From the sequence record NC_000866.4: a stretch of 64,000 bases of DNA; one strand, written 5' to 3'. Shown one piece after another: positions 10,511-64,000 of this stretch. Every line of letters begins with the position of its first letter. Position 1 is the first letter of the stretch. The DNA comes from Escherichia phage T4. The translations under genes and the position numbers were made by a program. The notes beneath the pieces were generated by a model. It was not told the origin of the DNA. It made no database searches and saw only the letters and a list, made by a program, of their open reading frames with translations.

Positions 10511-10536
10511 TCTCTAACGATAGAAACACAATTTTA

Positions 10537-10560
10537 GGGAACCTTCGGGTTCCCTTTTTT
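10537..10560 (+). terminator. Rho-independent terminator after gene 23
   Basis: GGGAACC-UUCG-GGUUCCC hairpin followed by a T6 tract. Confidence 0.8.
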
Positions 10561-14154: not shown

Positions 14155-14180
14155 AAAATGAAGAAAGGGGCCGAAGCCCC
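14155..14180 (-). terminator. Terminator after hoc
   Basis: Minus strand GGGGC-UUCG-GCCCC then UUUCUUCAUUUU. Confidence 0.65.
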
Positions 14181-14186
14181 TTATGA

Positions 14187-19405: not shown

Positions 19406-19802
19406 ATACTCTATTACTGGAAGCCAGCTGCAGTTTTATCTGCTCAATATCATCAGGATTATCGATGACCGAAAAGCGTATTTCTACTATCAGAGTATAA
19501 TCGTCATAAACGGGTATCACATTAACTGCTAATTTATCAATACGTGGCTCATAGTTTCTTACTGCGCTTTCGATATTGCGTTCAACCGTGTCAGCAGTAA
19601 GAGGAGTCATATTTTCAAAAAGCTGGTCTGATAAATCACATCCAAATTCAGGGTCAAACGGTCTTGAACCTTTTCTTGTTGTAATAATTCCCAAAAGACT
19701 GTTTTTAATTGACCTTAATCCAAGCGATCTGGAAACGTCTTTGTTCCAATCCATTTTCATTTCCGGGTCAATATCAGAATAAAGCTTATTAATATTTGCC
19801 AT
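19404..19802 (-). CDS. 25: Baseplate wedge protein
   Basis: 132-aa ORF; T4 gp25 length and position. Confidence 0.92.
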   Translation of the reverse strand: MANINKLYSDIDPEMKMDWNKDVSRSLGLRSIKNSLLGIITTRKGSRPFDPEFGCDLSDQLFENMTPLTADTVERNIESAVRNYEPRIDKLAVNVIPVYDDYTLIVEIRFSVIDNPDDIEQIKLQLASSNRV

Positions 19803-20428
19803 TATAGTAACTCAAAGAACTCTTTGAGGCCTCTTATTACGTGAGCATGGGTTTTTCCACACTCTGGACACTTAATTGGAACAGCCAAATAAACGGTAGG
19901 CTTTAAAAGCATATCTTTTATAGCTACAATATCTGACTCTGTGATGATAGAATATAAATCTTCTAGTTCCTTTTCATTTAAGTCTTCAACTGGAATGCTT
20001 TCCCCGTTAGCATGAATCGTTTCTATACATGATACTATCATGTGGGCTATATTTTTATCATCAAAAATTTTAGGGTATCGGAATTTAATTTTAATGTCAC
20101 CTAGTGTATACCAGAGGTCTTCTGGTGCATCTATTTGTGTATGTAATAGATTTATATGGGTTGGTATTTCAGTTCCACAGGTGCACTTCCAGGAGTTTTC
20201 GTGATTAACTTCACCGAGAGAATGTGCCCATAAATGAATCAACAATAGTTCTGATTCTTGGCGGTTTAAATCTTTTGCATTTGTGCAGTCTTTGATTAGC
20301 TTTTTAACAATTACTTCTACGGAACCATTATTTTTGGCAGTAATAAGTTCTAGATATTCTTTAAGCGTGAATGCGCGACAATTGATTATTTTAGAACCAA
20401 CTCTCACATCAAATTTGTATTCATACAT
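19802..20428 (-). CDS. 26: Baseplate hub protein
   Basis: 208-aa ORF; T4 gp26 length and position; TATAAATA on minus strand upstream. Confidence 0.9.
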
Positions 20429-29533: not shown

Positions 29534-29559
29534 TTATAAAATTAAAGGCCCGAAGGCCT

Positions 29560-29748
29560 TTAATAATCTATTGGTAAGAGAGTACGATATATTTCAAACT
29601 TTGGACCTTTTTCATAAGCATCAAATGTTTCTGTGAATTTATTATAAGCATATGCATCTATAAATTCAATCATGATTTGTGATACAGAAGTAGAAACATC
29701 TCCACCTTCTTTTTGAGCCACGACAATTGTTTCTAAGTAAGCTTTCAT
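29560..29748 (-). CDS. Hypothetical protein (62 aa) between DNA ligase and alt
   Basis: ATG overlaps the ligase stop; no recognisable motif. Confidence 0.6.
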   Translation of the reverse strand: MKAYLETIVVAQKEGGDVSTSVSQIMIEFIDAYAYNKFTETFDAYEKGPKFEIYRTLLPIDY

Positions 29749-32964: not shown

Positions 32965-33158
32965 ACTAATTCCTTTAATCCGTAGATAGGAGATAATTCA
33001 TCACCCATACGAAGGTCTTCATTTCCATCTACCCAGGAAACAATATAAGCCTCTTTTATTTGAATACCACTCCATTTAAATGGAGGTAGAACCTTAGAAA
33101 TTAATCCAGGTATACCAACTCCCTTTAATTCAACAGTTTGACCTAAAAAGAATTTCAT
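32961..33158 (-). CDS. Hypothetical protein (T4 30.x cluster)
   Basis: 65-aa ORF, overlapping neighbours. Confidence 0.55.
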   Translation of the reverse strand: MKFFLGQTVELKGVGIPGLISKVLPPFKWSGIQIKEAYIVSWVDGNEDLRMGDELSPIYGLKELV

Positions 33159-33445
33159 TAGAACCTCATCTGAAAACCGTGCGATTTAACATTACCGCCG
33201 CCAATATCAGAAATGTTAATTTCACGCGCAATTGAAGGGTCAATGTCAATTTCACGATTGAGTTTAGTGATAGCTAAAGTATCACGCCCATTTACAGTAC
33301 GGAACTCTAAAGGACAAACCACATCAACGTAGTTTTTAATCGATTCGCTAGTAAGTTGCAAATGTGCAGGAAGGTCTTTAGGTGCCTTTGAGAAAACCAC
33401 TTCACAGAAATTTTTGCGGGTATCAAAATAAGTAGTCATAAACAT
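33158..33445 (-). CDS. Hypothetical protein (T4 30.x cluster)
   Basis: 95-aa ORF; AGGAAAA RBS; hairpin upstream. Confidence 0.6.
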   Translation of the reverse strand: MFMTTYFDTRKNFCEVVFSKAPKDLPAHLQLTSESIKNYVDVVCPLEFRTVNGRDTLAITKLNREIDIDPSIAREINISDIGGGNVKSHGFQMRF

Positions 33446-33486
33446 AATATTTTCCTCAGTAAGGGGCTGAAGCCCCTCATTTTATT

Positions 33487-34329: not shown

Positions 34330-34358
34330 AAAATAAAAAAGGACTCCCGAAGGAGTCC
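34330..34358 (-). terminator. Terminator at the end of the 30.x cluster
   Basis: Minus strand GGACUCC-UUCG-GGAGUCC then UUUUUUAUUUU. Confidence 0.75.
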
Positions 34359-34363
34359 TCAAC

Positions 34364-40339: not shown

Positions 40340-41927
<1,588 letters not shown>

Positions 41928-41949
41928 AATAAAATGGGCCTTGCGGCCC
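41928..41949 (-). terminator. Hairpin between nrdB and denA
   Basis: Minus strand GGGCC-GCAA-GGCCC then AUUUUAUU, immediately before the denA AUG. Confidence 0.55.
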
Positions 41950-41954
41950 ACTCC

Positions 41955-42457
41955 TTAAAAGTATTTTTTAAAACTCATCATAACTTTATCATCAACATCA
42001 TTATCAATCTGTGCAACAAGGTAAGATGACAGTTCTACTTCTTGCGGCGCGGATTGAACATTATCAGAATTAAGATATTCACGAATCCAAGGATATGGAT
42101 GTTTAACCGGAGCATCGGTAATTGGGCATGGAAGACCGCACTGTTTCATACGAGATACAGTTAAGTAATCAATAAAGCTCCACATGCTATTTGTATTTAA
42201 TCCAGGAACATCACCATCTTTAAATAAATGAACTGCCCAGTCTTTTTCCTGGCGGTTAACTTCCATGAAAATATCAACTGCTTCTTGTTCACACTCTTGG
42301 GCAATTTTAACCCATTCATCACCATCAGTACCGGATTGAAGTTGACGAATAATATATTGGGTGCCTTTAAGGTGAAGCTGTTCATCACGTGCAATGAACT
42401 TCATAATCTTGGCATTACCTTCCATGATTTCCATGTTCTTATGGAAGTTAAAGGTAC
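41955..42457 (-). CDS. nrdB: Ribonucleotide reductase small subunit, exon 2
   Basis: Continues exon 1 after a group I intron; contains the second iron-ligand motif (ARDEQLHL); boundary inferred from the E. coli R2 sequence recalled from memory. Confidence 0.8.
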
Positions 42458-50113: not shown

Positions 50114-50143
50114 ATAGTATCACACTACTACCCTGATGTAAAC
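50114..50143 (-). promoter_or_regulatory. Early sigma70-like promoter upstream of frd.1
   Basis: Minus strand GTTTACA - 17 nt - TACTAT, overlapping the frd.2 stop. Confidence 0.5.
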
Positions 50144-50544
50144 TACTTTTTGAAAGTTTTTCGCAAAAGTTCAATGATTTCATCTACATTGTTTTCGTCA
50201 ACAATGCAGTGAATTTTTGTTACGCCAGAAACCTTGTCTTTGACTTCATCTTCTTCAGAAGTCGGTTCTTTATATTCGCGGAAACAATAAAACTCTTCTT
50301 CACTAAGTTCAAAATAATCATCACCCATACCATCATCATTATAGATTTCACCATTAGCACAAATGATTTCGGTTACATAATCAAAGCCATCTAAACTTGA
50401 TATTGATTTAACTTCAAACCAACCGCCATTTTCTTGAATGATGCCGACCATACTAGCATTTGATGAACTAATATCAATGAAAGATTTAATACGATGTGGA
50501 TTTAACTCGTATTTTTTGCCGATTTCCATTTTGATTTTCCTCAT
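50143..50544 (-). CDS. frd.2: Hypothetical protein
   Basis: 133-aa acidic ORF with GAGGAAAA RBS; name by synteny. Confidence 0.7.
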   Translation of the reverse strand: MRKIKMEIGKKYELNPHRIKSFIDISSSNASMVGIIQENGGWFEVKSISSLDGFDYVTEIICANGEIYNDDGMGDDYFELSEEEFYCFREYKEPTSEEDEVKDKVSGVTKIHCIVDENNVDEIIELLRKTFKK

Positions 50545-50574
50545 TTTAATAGGGGCTTGATAGCCCCTTGATAA

Positions 50575-50802
50575 TTATTGTTCAATCAGTCCCATGTAAA
50601 ATTCTGCGTCTTCAGAATCCATGCCATCACAATATTCATTAGCCATAAAGCGGGTGAGGTCTTCAAGAGGACCTTCAATAACGATTTGAATACTCCAAAA
50701 CTTAGAATCTTGCACGCTTGTGATACTAAGTTCAGGATAACGATTACGAATAATCTCTTCAATATATTCAAAATCAACGATGTCAATATCAACTTTAGCC
50801 AT
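50575..50802 (-). CDS. frd.3: Hypothetical protein
   Basis: 75-aa ORF; name by synteny. Confidence 0.65.
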
Positions 50803-54766: not shown

Positions 54767-54774
54767 TATAAATA
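54767..54774 (+). promoter_or_regulatory. Late promoter TATAAATA for gene 34
   Basis: Exact TATAAATA 35 nt upstream of the gene 34 ATG. Confidence 0.7.
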
Positions 54775-59805: not shown

Positions 59806-59810
59806 ATTGA

Positions 59811-59834
59811 GGGACCCTTCGGGTTCCCTTTTTC
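59811..59834 (+). terminator. Terminator after gene 35
   Basis: GGGACCC-UUCG-GGUUCCC hairpin then TTTTTC, immediately upstream of the gene 36 late promoter. Confidence 0.8.
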
Positions 59835-59836
59835 TT

Positions 59837-59844
59837 TATAAATA
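59837..59844 (+). promoter_or_regulatory. Late promoter TATAAATA for gene 36
   Basis: Exact TATAAATA directly after the gene 35 terminator, 24 nt upstream of the gene 36 ATG. Confidence 0.7.
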
Positions 59845-60541: not shown

Positions 60542-63500
60542 ATGGCTACTTTAAAACAAATACAATTTAAAAGAAGCAAAATCGCAGGAACACGTCCTGC
60601 TGCTTCAGTATTAGCCGAAGGTGAATTGGCTATAAACTTAAAAGATAGAACAATTTTTACTAAAGATGATTCAGGAAATATCATCGATCTAGGTTTTGCT
60701 AAAGGCGGGCAAGTTGATGGCAACGTTACTATTAACGGACTTTTGAGATTAAATGGCGATTATGTACAAACAGGTGGAATGACTGTAAACGGACCCATTG
60801 GTTCTACTGATGGCGTCACTGGAAAAATTTTCAGATCTACACAGGGTTCATTTTATGCAAGAGCAACAAACGATACTTCAAATGCCCATTTATGGTTTGA
60901 AAATGCCGATGGCACTGAACGTGGCGTTATATATGCTCGCCCTCAAACTACAACTGACGGTGAAATACGCCTTAGGGTTAGACAAGGAACAGGAAGCACT
61001 GCCAACAGTGAATTCTATTTCCGCTCTATAAATGGAGGCGAATTTCAGGCTAACCGTATTTTAGCATCAGATTCGTTAGTAACAAAACGCATTGCGGTTG
61101 ATACCGTTATTCATGATGCCAAAGCATTTGGACAATATGATTCTCACTCTTTGGTTAATTATGTTTATCCTGGAACCGGTGAAACAAATGGTGTAAACTA
61201 TCTTCGTAAAGTTCGCGCTAAGTCCGGTGGTACAATTTATCATGAAATTGTTACTGCACAAACAGGCCTGGCTGATGAAGTTTCTTGGTGGTCTGGTGAT
61301 ACACCAGTATTTAAACTATACGGTATTCGTGACGATGGCAGAATGATTATCCGTAATAGCCTTGCATTAGGTACATTCACTACAAATTTCCCGTCTAGTG
61401 ATTATGGCAACGTCGGTGTAATGGGCGATAAGTATCTTGTTCTCGGCGACACTGTAACTGGCTTGTCATACAAAAAAACTGGTGTATTTGATCTAGTTGG
61501 CGGTGGATATTCTGTTGCTTCTATTACTCCTGACAGTTTCCGTAGTACTCGTAAAGGTATATTTGGTCGTTCTGAGGACCAAGGCGCAACTTGGATAATG
61601 CCTGGTACAAATGCTGCTCTCTTGTCTGTTCAAACACAAGCTGATAATAACAATGCTGGAGACGGACAAACCCATATCGGGTACAATGCTGGCGGTAAAA
61701 TGAACCACTATTTCCGTGGTACAGGTCAGATGAATATCAATACCCAACAAGGTATGGAAATTAACCCGGGTATTTTGAAATTGGTAACTGGCTCTAATAA
61801 TGTACAATTTTACGCTGACGGAACTATTTCTTCCATTCAACCTATTAAATTAGATAACGAGATATTTTTAACTAAATCTAATAATACTGCGGGTCTTAAA
61901 TTTGGAGCTCCTAGCCAAGTTGATGGCACAAGGACTATCCAATGGAACGGTGGTACTCGCGAAGGACAGAATAAAAACTATGTGATTATTAAAGCATGGG
62001 GTAACTCATTTAATGCCACTGGTGATAGATCTCGCGAAACGGTTTTCCAAGTATCAGATAGTCAAGGATATTATTTTTATGCTCATCGTAAAGCTCCAAC
62101 CGGCGACGAAACTATTGGACGTATTGAAGCTCAATTTGCTGGGGATGTTTATGCTAAAGGTATTATTGCCAACGGAAATTTTAGAGTTGTTGGGTCAAGC
62201 GCTTTAGCCGGCAATGTTACTATGTCTAACGGTTTGTTTGTCCAAGGTGGTTCTTCTATTACTGGACAAGTTAAAATTGGCGGAACAGCAAACGCACTGA
62301 GAATTTGGAACGCTGAATATGGTGCTATTTTCCGTCGTTCGGAAAGTAACTTTTATATTATTCCAACCAATCAAAATGAAGGAGAAAGTGGAGACATTCA
62401 CAGCTCTTTGAGACCTGTGAGAATAGGATTAAACGATGGCATGGTTGGGTTAGGAAGAGATTCTTTTATAGTAGATCAAAATAATGCTTTAACTACGATA
62501 AACAGTAACTCTCGCATTAATGCCAACTTTAGAATGCAATTGGGGCAGTCGGCATACATTGATGCAGAATGTACTGATGCTGTTCGCCCGGCGGGTGCAG
62601 GTTCATTTGCTTCCCAGAATAATGAAGACGTCCGTGCGCCGTTCTATATGAATATTGATAGAACTGATGCTAGTGCATATGTTCCTATTTTGAAACAACG
62701 TTATGTTCAAGGCAATGGCTGCTATTCATTAGGGACTTTAATTAATAATGGTAATTTCCGAGTTCATTACCATGGCGGCGGAGATAACGGTTCTACAGGT
62801 CCACAGACTGCTGATTTTGGATGGGAATTTATTAAAAACGGTGATTTTATTTCACCTCGCGATTTAATAGCAGGCAAAGTCAGATTTGATAGAACTGGTA
62901 ATATCACTGGTGGTTCTGGTAATTTTGCTAACTTAAACAGTACAATTGAATCACTTAAAACTGATATCATGTCGAGTTACCCAATTGGTGCTCCGATTCC
63001 TTGGCCGAGTGATTCAGTTCCTGCTGGATTTGCTTTGATGGAAGGTCAGACCTTTGATAAGTCCGCATATCCAAAGTTAGCTGTTGCATATCCTAGCGGT
63101 GTTATTCCAGATATGCGCGGGCAAACTATCAAGGGTAAACCAAGTGGTCGTGCTGTTTTGAGCGCTGAGGCAGATGGTGTTAAGGCTCATAGCCATAGTG
63201 CATCGGCTTCAAGTACTGACTTAGGTACTAAAACCACATCAAGCTTTGACTATGGTACGAAGGGAACTAACAGTACGGGTGGACACACTCACTCTGGTAG
63301 TGGTTCTACTAGCACAAATGGTGAGCACAGCCACTACATCGAGGCATGGAATGGTACTGGTGTAGGTGGTAATAAGATGTCATCATATGCCATATCATAC
63401 AGGGCGGGTGGGAGTAACACTAATGCAGCAGGGAACCACAGTCACACTTTCTCTTTTGGGACTAGCAGTGCTGGCGACCATTCCCACTCTGTAGGTATTG

Positions 63501-63622
63501 GTGCTCATACCCACACGGTAGCAATTGGATCACATGGTCATACTATCACTGTAAATAGTACAGGTAATACAGAAAACACGGTTAAAAACATTGCTTTTAA
63601 CTATATCGTTCGTTTAGCATAA
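60542..63622 (+). CDS. 37: Long tail fibre distal subunit / receptor-binding adhesin
   Basis: 1026-aa ORF with C-terminal His-x-His repeats; T4 gp37 length. Confidence 0.96.
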
Positions 63623-63651
63623 GGAGAGGGGCTTCGGCCCTTCTAAATATG
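63623..63651 (+). promoter_or_regulatory. Gene 38 translation initiation region with hairpin between SD and AUG
   Basis: GGAG is 22 nt upstream of the ATG; a GGGC-UUCG-GCCC tetraloop hairpin lies between them. Confidence 0.65.
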
Positions 63652-64000
63652 AAAATATATCATTATTATTTTGACACTAAAGAATTTTACAAAGAAGAAA
63701 ATTACAAACCGGTTAAAGGCCTCGGTCTTCCTGCTCATTCAACAATTAAAAAACCTTTAGAACCTAAAGAAGGATACGCGGTTGTATTTGATGAACGTAC
63801 TCAGGATTGGATTTATGAAGAAGACCATCGCGGAAAACGCGCATGGACTTTTAATAAAGAAGAAATTTTTATAAGTGACATTGGAAGCCCGGTTGGTATA
63901 ACTTTCGATGAGCCCGGCGAATTTGATATATGGACTGATGACGGTTGGAAAGAAGACGAAACATATAAGCGAGTTTTAATTCGTAATAGAAAAATTGAAG
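63649..64000 (+). CDS. 38: Tail fibre assembly chaperone, 5' partial
   Basis: ATG at 63649 opens MKIYHYYFDTKEFYKEENYKPVKG..., recognised as the T4 gp38 N-terminus; runs off the window edge. Confidence 0.88.
   Translation, partial: MKIYHYYFDTKEFYKEENYKPVKGLGLPAHSTIKKPLEPKEGYAVVFDERTQDWIYEEDHRGKRAWTFNKEEIFISDIGSPVGITFDEPGEFDIWTDDGWKEDETYKRVLIRNRKIE

What the first reader, a model, noticed from the sequence alone, without database searches (positions are those of the whole stretch)
63623..63651. Gene 38 start codon separated from its Shine-Dalgarno by a tetraloop hairpin
GGAG lies 22 nt upstream of the AUG, too far for normal initiation, but a GGGC-UUCG-GCCC hairpin in between would bring them to functional spacing when folded. 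Translation of the tail-fibre chaperone would then depend on RNA structure.
Basis: partly seen in the sequence, partly recalled or inferred. Interest (0 to 1): 0.35.

Follow-up and report, generated by a model that had tools for sequence, protein, structure and literature searches.

The report
T4 gene 38 split ribosome-binding site
This is the published "split" ribosome-binding site of phage T4 gene 38, where a very stable small RNA hairpin sits between the ribosome-docking sequence and the start codon; it is real and conserved, but not new.

Summary
The window is phage T4 (100% match to the T4 gene 37/38 record). The gene 37 stop codon overlaps a strong Shine-Dalgarno sequence (SD), UAAGGAG, at 63620-63626. 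GGAG lies 22 nt before the gene 38 AUG at 63649. A C(UUCG)G hairpin sits between them: 8 bp in the predicted fold (-14.1 kcal/mol), or 6 bp if the SD is kept free, which leaves 6 nt before the AUG. No other SD or start codon lies in between.

In 24 relatives with the T4-type gene 38, the order SD-hairpin-AUG is kept. Linear spacing is 22-27 nt and folded spacing 6-9 nt. One stem pair covaries (G-C, A-U, C-G, G-U).

The interpretation matches the literature. Uzan and Miller 2010, citing Nivinskas 1999, say the structure reduces the gene 38 spacing from 22 to 5 nt. So the finding is already known.

The added point is that the hairpin also follows gene 37 in phages where the SD lies after it at normal spacing (RB69, T6, JS98, Moon and about 19 IMG/VR loci). 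It probably has another role, such as protecting or ending the gene 37 RNA, and the ribosome accommodates it.

In passing, the nrdB/denA junction (41928-41956, minus strand) shows the same architecture with strong covariation.

The parts
60542..63622 (+). Gene 37 (distal long tail fibre subunit, 1026 aa). Its stop codon TAA is at 63620-63622.
   Evidence: ORF list. 100% identical to T4 record J02509, annotated tail fiber protein 37.
63620..63626 (+). Shine-Dalgarno sequence UAAGGAG, overlapping the gene 37 stop codon.
   Evidence: Sequence. Strongest predicted anti-SD duplex of all ORF starts in the window, -9.3 kcal/mol. Present in all 24 T4-type relatives aligned.
63625..63644 (+). C(UUCG)G tetraloop hairpin. 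The predicted stem is 8 bp (63625-63632 with 63637-63644) with the loop at 63633-63636. The core 6 bp (63627-63632 with 63637-63642) remain when the SD is engaged.
   Evidence: Folds. Covariation at the second pair from the loop: G-C, A-U, C-G, G-U.
63643..63648 (+). Residual single-stranded spacer CUAAAU (6 nt) between the core stem and the AUG. It is 5 nt if G63626-C63643 is counted as paired, as in the literature.
   Evidence: PMC3014915.
63649..64000 (+). 5' part of gene 38 (tail-fibre assembly chaperone), AUG at 63649-63651, cut off by the end of the window.
   Evidence: Translation MKIYHYYFDTKEFY.... PHROG 105 'tail fiber assembly', E = 8e-34. The N-terminus MKI/LYH is conserved in all relatives, including Moon, which has a normally spaced SD.

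Best explanation
This is the known split (also called 'accommodated') translation initiation region of T4 gene 38. Gene 38 has no late promoter of its own and is read from polycistronic late mRNA that starts upstream of gene 36 or gene 34. The 30S subunit pairs with UAAGGAG, which overlaps the gene 37 stop codon. That pairing opens the two weak bottom pairs of the stem. The 6-7 bp C(UUCG)G hairpin stays folded and is looped out, so only 5-6 single-stranded nucleotides separate the SD duplex from the AUG in the P site. The sequence, the fold, the conservation and the covariation are shown here. That the ribosome uses this SD with the hairpin folded, and that the stem is needed for efficient initiation, is taken from the literature and is otherwise inferred. 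The hairpin itself is most likely an older, multi-purpose element at the 3' end of gene 37 that the initiation region has been built around.
For: Identity with T4. Geometry: 22 nt linear spacing; 8-bp stem at -14.1 kcal/mol; 6 nt left when the SD is kept free. No alternative start or SD. No TATAAATA on the + strand between 59837 and gene 38. In 24 relatives from Tequatrovirus, Mosigvirus and Gaprivervirus, the order UAAGGAG-hairpin-AUG is kept, with linear spacing 22-27 nt and, in the 9 of 15 distinct junction sequences for which the script gave a usable value, folded spacing 6-9 nt (T4 itself read by hand). No SD lies after the hairpin. Stem: 98.9% of cells paired, one pair with four pair types, 0 of 500 shuffles reach the covariation score. 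Published statement of the mechanism for gene 38, 22 to 5 nt (PMC3014915). The sister case, gene 25, is present in the same window with the published 27-nt spacing.
Against: The review's sentence on destabilising mutations does not say which of the two genes was mutated. From my own knowledge the detailed genetics is for gene 25, and I could not read Nivinskas 1999. The predicted fold sequesters the last two SD nucleotides. A GC-rich hairpin follows gene 37 in RB69, T6, JS98, Moon and about 19 of 21 IMG/VR loci, where the SD is downstream at 5-8 nt; the hairpin is therefore not selected for bridging alone. Only one stem pair covaries within the T4-type clade, whose members are closely related.
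Confidence: 0.78

Rival explanations
1. The hairpin is primarily an element at the 3' end of gene 37. It would act as a barrier to 3'-to-5' exonucleases, a partial terminator, or a folding insulator between cistrons. Placing the SD 5' of it is a secondary accommodation in a very compact genome. On this view, bridging is tolerated by the ribosome rather than being the selected function. This is compatible with the main explanation.
For: A GC-rich hairpin sits directly after the gene 37 stop in phages with the unrelated T2-type gene 38, and in Moon, with the SD downstream at normal spacing. Examples: RB69 TAATAAGAGGGGC-TTCG-GCCCCTT-GGAGG-N5-ATG, T6, JS98, Moon, and about 19 of 21 IMG/VR loci. 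Pooled covariation: 3 pairs with changes on both sides and 96% of cells paired. The other long-stem CUUCGG hairpins in the window that lie just 3' of an ORF mostly have U runs. In Mosigvirus relatives the stem is followed by UUUUUAUAAU, and the NBG1 record annotates a terminator there.
Against: In T4 the tail is UUCUAAAU, and the terminator scan does not call this site. Termination here would remove the gene 38 coding sequence from the transcript. There are no data on RNA 3' ends. This view does not explain why the T4-type clade keeps a strong SD upstream of the hairpin and none downstream.
Confidence: 0.45
2. Gene 38 is translated mainly by coupling to gene 37. Ribosomes terminating at UAA, which overlaps the SD, are held by the SD and reinitiate at the AUG 26 nt downstream. 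The hairpin plays no positive part.
For: The stop codon overlaps the SD. The homologous lambdoid stf/tfa junction is a coupled ATAATG overlap. One denA-junction variant (L057) replaces the hairpin with a TTATGA overlap.
Against: This does not explain the conserved and covarying stem, or the constant 6-9 nt folded spacing despite variable linear spacing. The published model is de novo initiation through the split site.
Confidence: 0.12
3. The SD-like sequence and the hairpin are juxtaposed by chance, and the AUG is served by AU-rich, S1-dependent initiation.
For: The sequence after the hairpin is AU-rich.
Against: UAAGGAG is invariant in all 24 T4-type relatives. The stem covaries and the folded spacing is kept. 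The fold z-score is -2.9.
Confidence: 0.04

Closest known systems
T4 gene 38 split translation initiation region, as published (Gold et al. 1981 and Nivinskas et al. 1999 from my own knowledge; reviewed in Uzan and Miller 2010, PMC3014915)
   Same: It is the same locus and the same model. The review gives SD-AUG spacing of 22 nt reduced to 5 nt by the intervening hairpin. The window is 100% identical to T4.
   Different: Nothing differs in kind. Added here are comparative support for gene 38 and the observation that the hairpin is conserved whichever side the SD lies on.
T4 gene 26-25 junction: the 'accommodated ribosome binding site' (Nivinskas 1999; Malys and Nivinskas 2009)
   Same: SD (GAGG, 19833-19830 on the minus strand), a 7-bp hairpin, then AUG (19802), with 27 nt linear spacing. 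It lies in the same window. The principle is the same.
   Different: The stem is AU-rich and weak (about -7 to -8 kcal/mol, z = -0.65) with an AGUU loop. The SD lies inside the upstream coding sequence, and folded spacing is about 11 nt.
C(UUCG)G extra-stable tetraloop hairpins of T4 intercistronic regions (Tuerk et al. 1988; commentary PMC4371310)
   Same: The loop is UUCG closed by a C-G pair. The CTTCGG hexamer occurs 26 times in the window against 14.6 expected.
   Different: The other long-stem copies that lie just 3' of an ORF are mostly followed by U runs. This one lies between an SD and its AUG. In relatives the loop also occurs as UUCU, UUAG and UUAU.
Intrinsic (Rho-independent) terminators
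   Same: A GC-rich stem directly after a stop codon. Mosigvirus versions carry a U5 run.
   Different: The T4 version has only UUCU after the stem and fails the scan.

Membership tests
Split / accommodated SD-AUG initiation region (T4 gene 38 and gene 25 type) | A strong SD lies at a linear distance from the start codon beyond the functional range (more than about 13-15 nt). | tested here: met
   UAAGGAG, with GGAG 22 nt from the AUG. Predicted anti-SD duplex -9.3 kcal/mol, the strongest in the window.
Split / accommodated SD-AUG initiation region (T4 gene 38 and gene 25 type) | No other SD or in-frame start codon lies between the SD and the AUG. | tested here: met
   Sequence. In-frame translation of 63583-63651 shows no ATG, GTG or TTG before the AUG.
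Split / accommodated SD-AUG initiation region (T4 gene 38 and gene 25 type) | A stable local hairpin is contained between the SD and the AUG, and the folded spacing falls in the functional range. | tested here: met
   -14.1 kcal/mol and 85% of the ensemble. 6 nt remain with the SD free; the literature gives 5 nt.
Split / accommodated SD-AUG initiation region (T4 gene 38 and gene 25 type) | The arrangement and the base pairing are conserved in relatives. | tested here: met
   24 relatives keep the order. One pair shows G-C, A-U, C-G and G-U, and 98.9% of cells are paired.
Split / accommodated SD-AUG initiation region (T4 gene 38 and gene 25 type) | Stem-disrupting mutations lower initiation and compensatory mutations restore it; the hairpin is folded in the initiation complex. 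| not testable with these tools
   Only the summary statement in PMC3014915 is available. Nivinskas 1999 and Malys 2009 are not held.
Intrinsic terminator | A GC-rich stem-loop is followed at once by a U-rich tract (at least 5 U in 8 nt). | tested here: not met
   The T4 tail is UUCUAAAU, and the scan of 62800-64000 does not call the site. The feature is met in Mosigvirus relatives (UUUUUAUAAU).
C(UUCG)G extra-stable tetraloop hairpin | A UUCG loop closed by a C-G pair on a Watson-Crick stem. | tested here: met
   C63632-UUCG-G63637. The extra stability is established knowledge (PMC4371310).
Rfam RNA families | A match to a curated covariance model. | tested here: not met
   Only chance-level hits far below the gathering scores in 63300-64000.

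The most novel reading that the evidence does not exclude
The most novel reading not excluded is that the hairpin is not there for bridging. It would be a conserved element at the 3' end of a cistron, and 'stop codon overlapping SD, then GC tetraloop hairpin, then 5-10 AU-rich nt, then AUG' would be a recurrent junction module of T4-like phages that the ribosome reads across. The nrdB/denA junction (window 41928-41956, minus strand) would be a third example. It does not appear in the review I could read, which names only genes 38 and 25. It is conserved over many genera, with compensatory changes at 5 of 7 stem pairs.
Probability: 0.45. Interest if true: 0.35.

Novelty: already known. Interest (0 to 1): 0.12.

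Why it matters
The gene 38 site is a classic demonstration that the ribosome measures SD-AUG distance in space rather than along the sequence. It is also one of the contexts in which the extra-stable UUCG tetraloop was found in T4 mRNA. Re-finding it adds nothing new. The comparative data give a modest refinement: the hairpin is a fixture of the 37/38 junction whichever side the SD lies on, and the same architecture is kept at nrdB/denA. This suggests that split sites arise when a hairpin needed for another purpose has to share a very short intergenic space with an SD. The point matters in practice because gene callers and RBS annotators mis-assign such starts. In this window the mechanical ORF list starts the denA frame at a GTG that overlaps the SD.

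Tried and rejected
- **Rfam:** a scan of 63300-64000 at E up to 10 gave nothing meaningful.
- **IMG/VR searches for T4-type junctions:** a peptide search and an exact DNA pattern each returned only the same two contigs. I sampled the GenBank phage collection record by record instead.
- **Terminator and promoter scan:** it did not call the site, so I did not file it as a terminator.
- **Alternative start codons or a closer SD:** none found.
- **Automatic SD picking by anti-SD duplex energy:** G-rich stem arms and wrongly called ATG starts confuse it. I used it only as a rough ranking and read the flagged cases by eye.
- **A possible outer helix, GUUUAG (63613-63618) with CUAAAU (63643-63648):** it appears only when the SD is constrained and is absent from Mosigvirus relatives, so I rejected it as not conserved.
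- **RB49 (Krischvirus):** it has no gene 38 and no GC hairpin after gene 37, so conservation does not reach that far.
- **Lambdoid stf/tfa homologues:** they have an ATAATG overlap and no hairpin.
- **Papers not held:** Miller 2003 and Malys and Nivinskas 2009.
- **Searches for a published denA split site:** nothing found.

Full report
**Identity of the window.** The 601 bases around the finding are 100% identical to GenBank J02509 (phage T4 tail-fibre genes 37 and 38) and 99.7-99.8% identical to the T4 records listed in that search. The ORFs of 1289, 372, 221 and 1026 aa on the + strand are genes 34, 35, 36 and 37. The open frame from 63649 translates to MKIYHYYFDTKEFY... and matches PHROG 105 'tail fiber assembly'. 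This is gene 38, cut off by the end of the window.

**The observation.** Read directly from the sequence:
- Gene 37 ends with TAA at 63620-63622.
- UAAGGAG at 63620-63626 is a 7-nt complement of the 16S rRNA 3' end.
- GGGC is at 63629-63632, UUCG at 63633-63636 and GCCC at 63637-63640.
- ATG is at 63649-63651.
- Exactly 22 nt separate GGAG from the AUG.

The predicted fold of 63620-63655 is a single hairpin of 8 bp (63625-63632 with 63637-63644). Its energy is -14.1 kcal/mol and it holds 85% of the ensemble. The z-score against dinucleotide shuffles is -2.9, with 4 of 200 shuffles folding as well. An 81-nt context gives the same hairpin.

With the SD forced single-stranded, a 6-bp stem remains and 6 nt (CUAAAU) precede the AUG. 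Counting G63626-C63643 as paired leaves 5 nt, which is the figure in the literature.

There is no ATG, GTG or TTG in frame between the in-frame stop at 63598-63600 and the AUG, and nothing SD-like follows the hairpin. In a crude scan of about 67 ORF starts in the window, this SD has the strongest predicted anti-SD duplex (-9.3 kcal/mol) yet lies 21-22 nt from its start.

**Transcription context.** The late-promoter motif TATAAATA occurs on the + strand at 54767 (before gene 34) and 59837 (before gene 36), and not again before gene 38. Gene 38 is therefore read from polycistronic late mRNA. Its initiation region lies immediately behind ribosomes terminating on gene 37. This last point is inference.

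**Relatives with the T4-type gene 38.** I collected the junction from 24 such phages and contigs in Tequatrovirus, Mosigvirus and Gaprivervirus (sequences; alignment A1).
- All keep UAAGGAG overlapping the stop, then the hairpin, then an AU-rich tail and the AUG. None has an SD after the hairpin.
- Linear GGAG-AUG spacing varies from 22 to 27 nt.
- Folded spacing with the SD free is 6-9 nt where the script gave a usable value (9 of 15 distinct junction sequences, with T4 read by hand).
- The pair second from the loop occurs as G-C (7 distinct sequences), A-U (5), C-G (1) and G-U (1).
- 98.9% of cells are paired, and 0 of 500 shuffles reach the covariation score.
- The loop is usually UUCG but also UUCU, UUAG and UUAU, so the stem is what is held constant.
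- T4 alone lacks one C of the 3' arm (GCCC instead of GCCCC).

**What is known.** The review by Uzan and Miller (PMC3014915) states that intramolecular structures improve initiation at T4 genes 38 and 25. [quoted passage not shown] It cites Nivinskas et al. 1999.

From my own knowledge, the structure was first pointed out by Gold and colleagues in 1981. The CUUCGG hairpins of T4 mRNA are the subject of Tuerk et al. 1988; the commentary PMC4371310 recounts that story.

The sister case, gene 25, is also in this window. On the minus strand, GAGG at 19833-19830 is followed by a 7-bp hairpin and the AUG at 19802, with 27 nt of linear spacing as published.

**The hairpin is not specific to the split arrangement.** A GC-rich hairpin follows the gene 37 stop in phages whose gene 38 is the unrelated T2-type adhesin. 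In these the SD lies after the hairpin at normal spacing.
- RB69: TAATAAGAGGGGC-TTCG-GCCCCTT-GGAGG-TGTAT-ATG.
- T6: AAGGGGC-TTT-GCCCCTT-T-GGAG-AAAATT-ATG.
- JS98: GGGCC-CTCG-GGCCC-T-GGAGG-TTTTT-ATG.
- About 19 of 21 IMG/VR loci recovered with a T2-type gp38 profile.
- Citrobacter phage Moon, whose gp38 is a distant T4-type chaperone (41% identity), also has GGGGC-TTCG-GCCCC followed by GAGGA-AACT-ATG.

Pooling the junction hairpins with 4-nt loops gives 96% of cells paired and three pairs with changes on both sides, and 0 of 500 shuffles reach the score. That alignment was anchored on the loop, so it leans towards the structure.

The other long-stem CUUCGG hairpins in the window lie just 3' of ORFs, mostly with U runs:
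- 10536-10555 (+), after the 521-aa ORF;
- 14165-14182 (-), after the 376-aa ORF, with nearly the same stem, AAGGGGC/GCCCCUU;
- 29541-29564 (-);
- 34339-34360 (-);
- 59810-59829 (+), after gene 35 and just before the late-promoter motif.

In Mosigvirus relatives the gene 38 hairpin is followed by UUUUUAUAAU, and one record annotates it as a terminator. In T4 the tail is UUCUAAAU and the scan does not call a terminator.

My reading is inference: the hairpin is an older element at the 3' end of gene 37, possibly an exonuclease barrier, a partial terminator or a folding insulator. In the T4-type clade the SD sits on its 5' side, fused to the stop codon, and the ribosome accommodates the hairpin. 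RB49 has no gene 38 and no such hairpin. Lambdoid stf/tfa homologues have an ATAATG overlap instead.

**Rival explanations.** Coupled reinitiation after gene 37 termination is possible because the stop overlaps the SD. It does not explain the covarying stem or the constant folded spacing. Chance is excluded by conservation. None of the rivals conflicts with the observation, and the 3'-end-element reading complements the main model.

**A side observation: the nrdB/denA junction.** The SD scan flagged the 136-aa minus-strand ORF 41517..41927. It matches PHROG 1111 'endonuclease' over its full length from residue 1. By size and map position it is denA.

Its leader is UUUUAAGGAG-UGGGCC-GCAA-GGCCCA-UUUUAUU-AUG. 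The parts are:
- SD at 41956-41951;
- a 6-bp stem with a GNRA loop at 41950-41935;
- 7 nt of tail;
- AUG at 41927.

This gives 23 nt of linear spacing, with no SD after the hairpin.

In 36 IMG/VR loci from diverse T4-like phages, nearly all have the upstream stop UAA fused to AAGGA(G), then a GC hairpin (mostly with a UUCG loop), then 5-10 AU-rich nt and the AUG. The stems differ widely: GGGCC, GGGAC, GGGGC, AAAGGGC, GGGAGAC, CAGGGC and GAGGGC. In a loop-anchored alignment, 5 of 7 pairs show changes on both sides, 21 cells are compensatory, and 0 of 500 shuffles reach the score. One locus (L057) instead has a TTATGA overlap and no hairpin.

The review names only genes 38 and 25 as split sites, and my searches found no description of denA. 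This may be an undescribed third member of the same kind.

**Verdict.** The comparative refinement and the denA junction are the only parts that might be new.

Noticed in passing
window 41925-41956, minus strand (SD 41956-41951, hairpin 41950-41935, AUG 41927-41925); loci L033-L068: The nrdB/denA junction has the same architecture as gene 38: UAAGGAG, then UGGGCC-GCAA-GGCCCA, then UUUUAUU and AUG, with 23 nt linear spacing and no SD after the hairpin. It is conserved in about 35 of 36 IMG/VR T4-like loci, and 5 of 7 stem pairs show compensatory changes. It is not among the split sites named in the 2010 review. The mechanical ORF list starts this frame at a GTG that overlaps the SD.
   Followed up: yes
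window 19800-19833, minus strand: This is the known gene 26-25 split initiation region: GAGG at 19833-19830, hairpin CUCAAAG-AGUU-CUUUGAG, AUG at 19802, and 27 nt spacing. The fold is weak (about -7 to -8 kcal/mol, z = -0.65).
   Followed up: partly
window 10536-10555 (+), 14165-14182 (-), 29541-29564 (-), 34339-34360 (-), 59810-59829 (+): Five further long-stem C(UUCG)G hairpins lie just 3' of ORFs, mostly followed by U runs and so terminator-like. The one after the 376-aa ORF has almost the same stem as the gene 38 hairpin. The one after gene 35 is followed at once by the late-promoter motif TATAAATA at 59837. The CTTCGG hexamer occurs 26 times in the window against 14.6 expected.
   Followed up: partly
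window 33446-33485 (-) and 50545-50580 (-): Upstream of the 95-aa ORF 33158..33445 lies GAGGGGC-UUCA-GCCCCUU, then ACUGAGGAAAAUAUU-AUG. This is the hairpin-SD-AUG order also seen at gene 38 in RB69. Upstream of the 133-aa ORF 50143..50544 lies AGGGGCU-AUCA-AGCCCCU, then AUUAAA-AUG, with no SD after the hairpin. The only SD-like bases there (AAGGGG) are part of the stem.
   Followed up: no
window 63637-63640 compared with loci L001, L004, L008-L028: T4 is the only sampled phage whose 3' arm is GCCC rather than G(C/U/G)CCC. This shifts the lower stem register and gives the shortest linear spacing (22 nt).
   Followed up: no
window 63496-63622; L012 (PhiR26_1) and lambda-type records: DNA similarity between the T4 gene 37 3' end and lambdoid stf genes stops exactly at the stop codon. 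The lambdoid stf/tfa junction is the overlap GCATAATGG, with neither an SD nor a hairpin.
   Followed up: partly
window 63613-63618 with 63643-63648: A possible outer helix, GUUUAG with CUAAAU, would enclose the SD and the hairpin. It is predicted only when the SD is kept unpaired, and it is absent from Mosigvirus relatives.
   Followed up: partly
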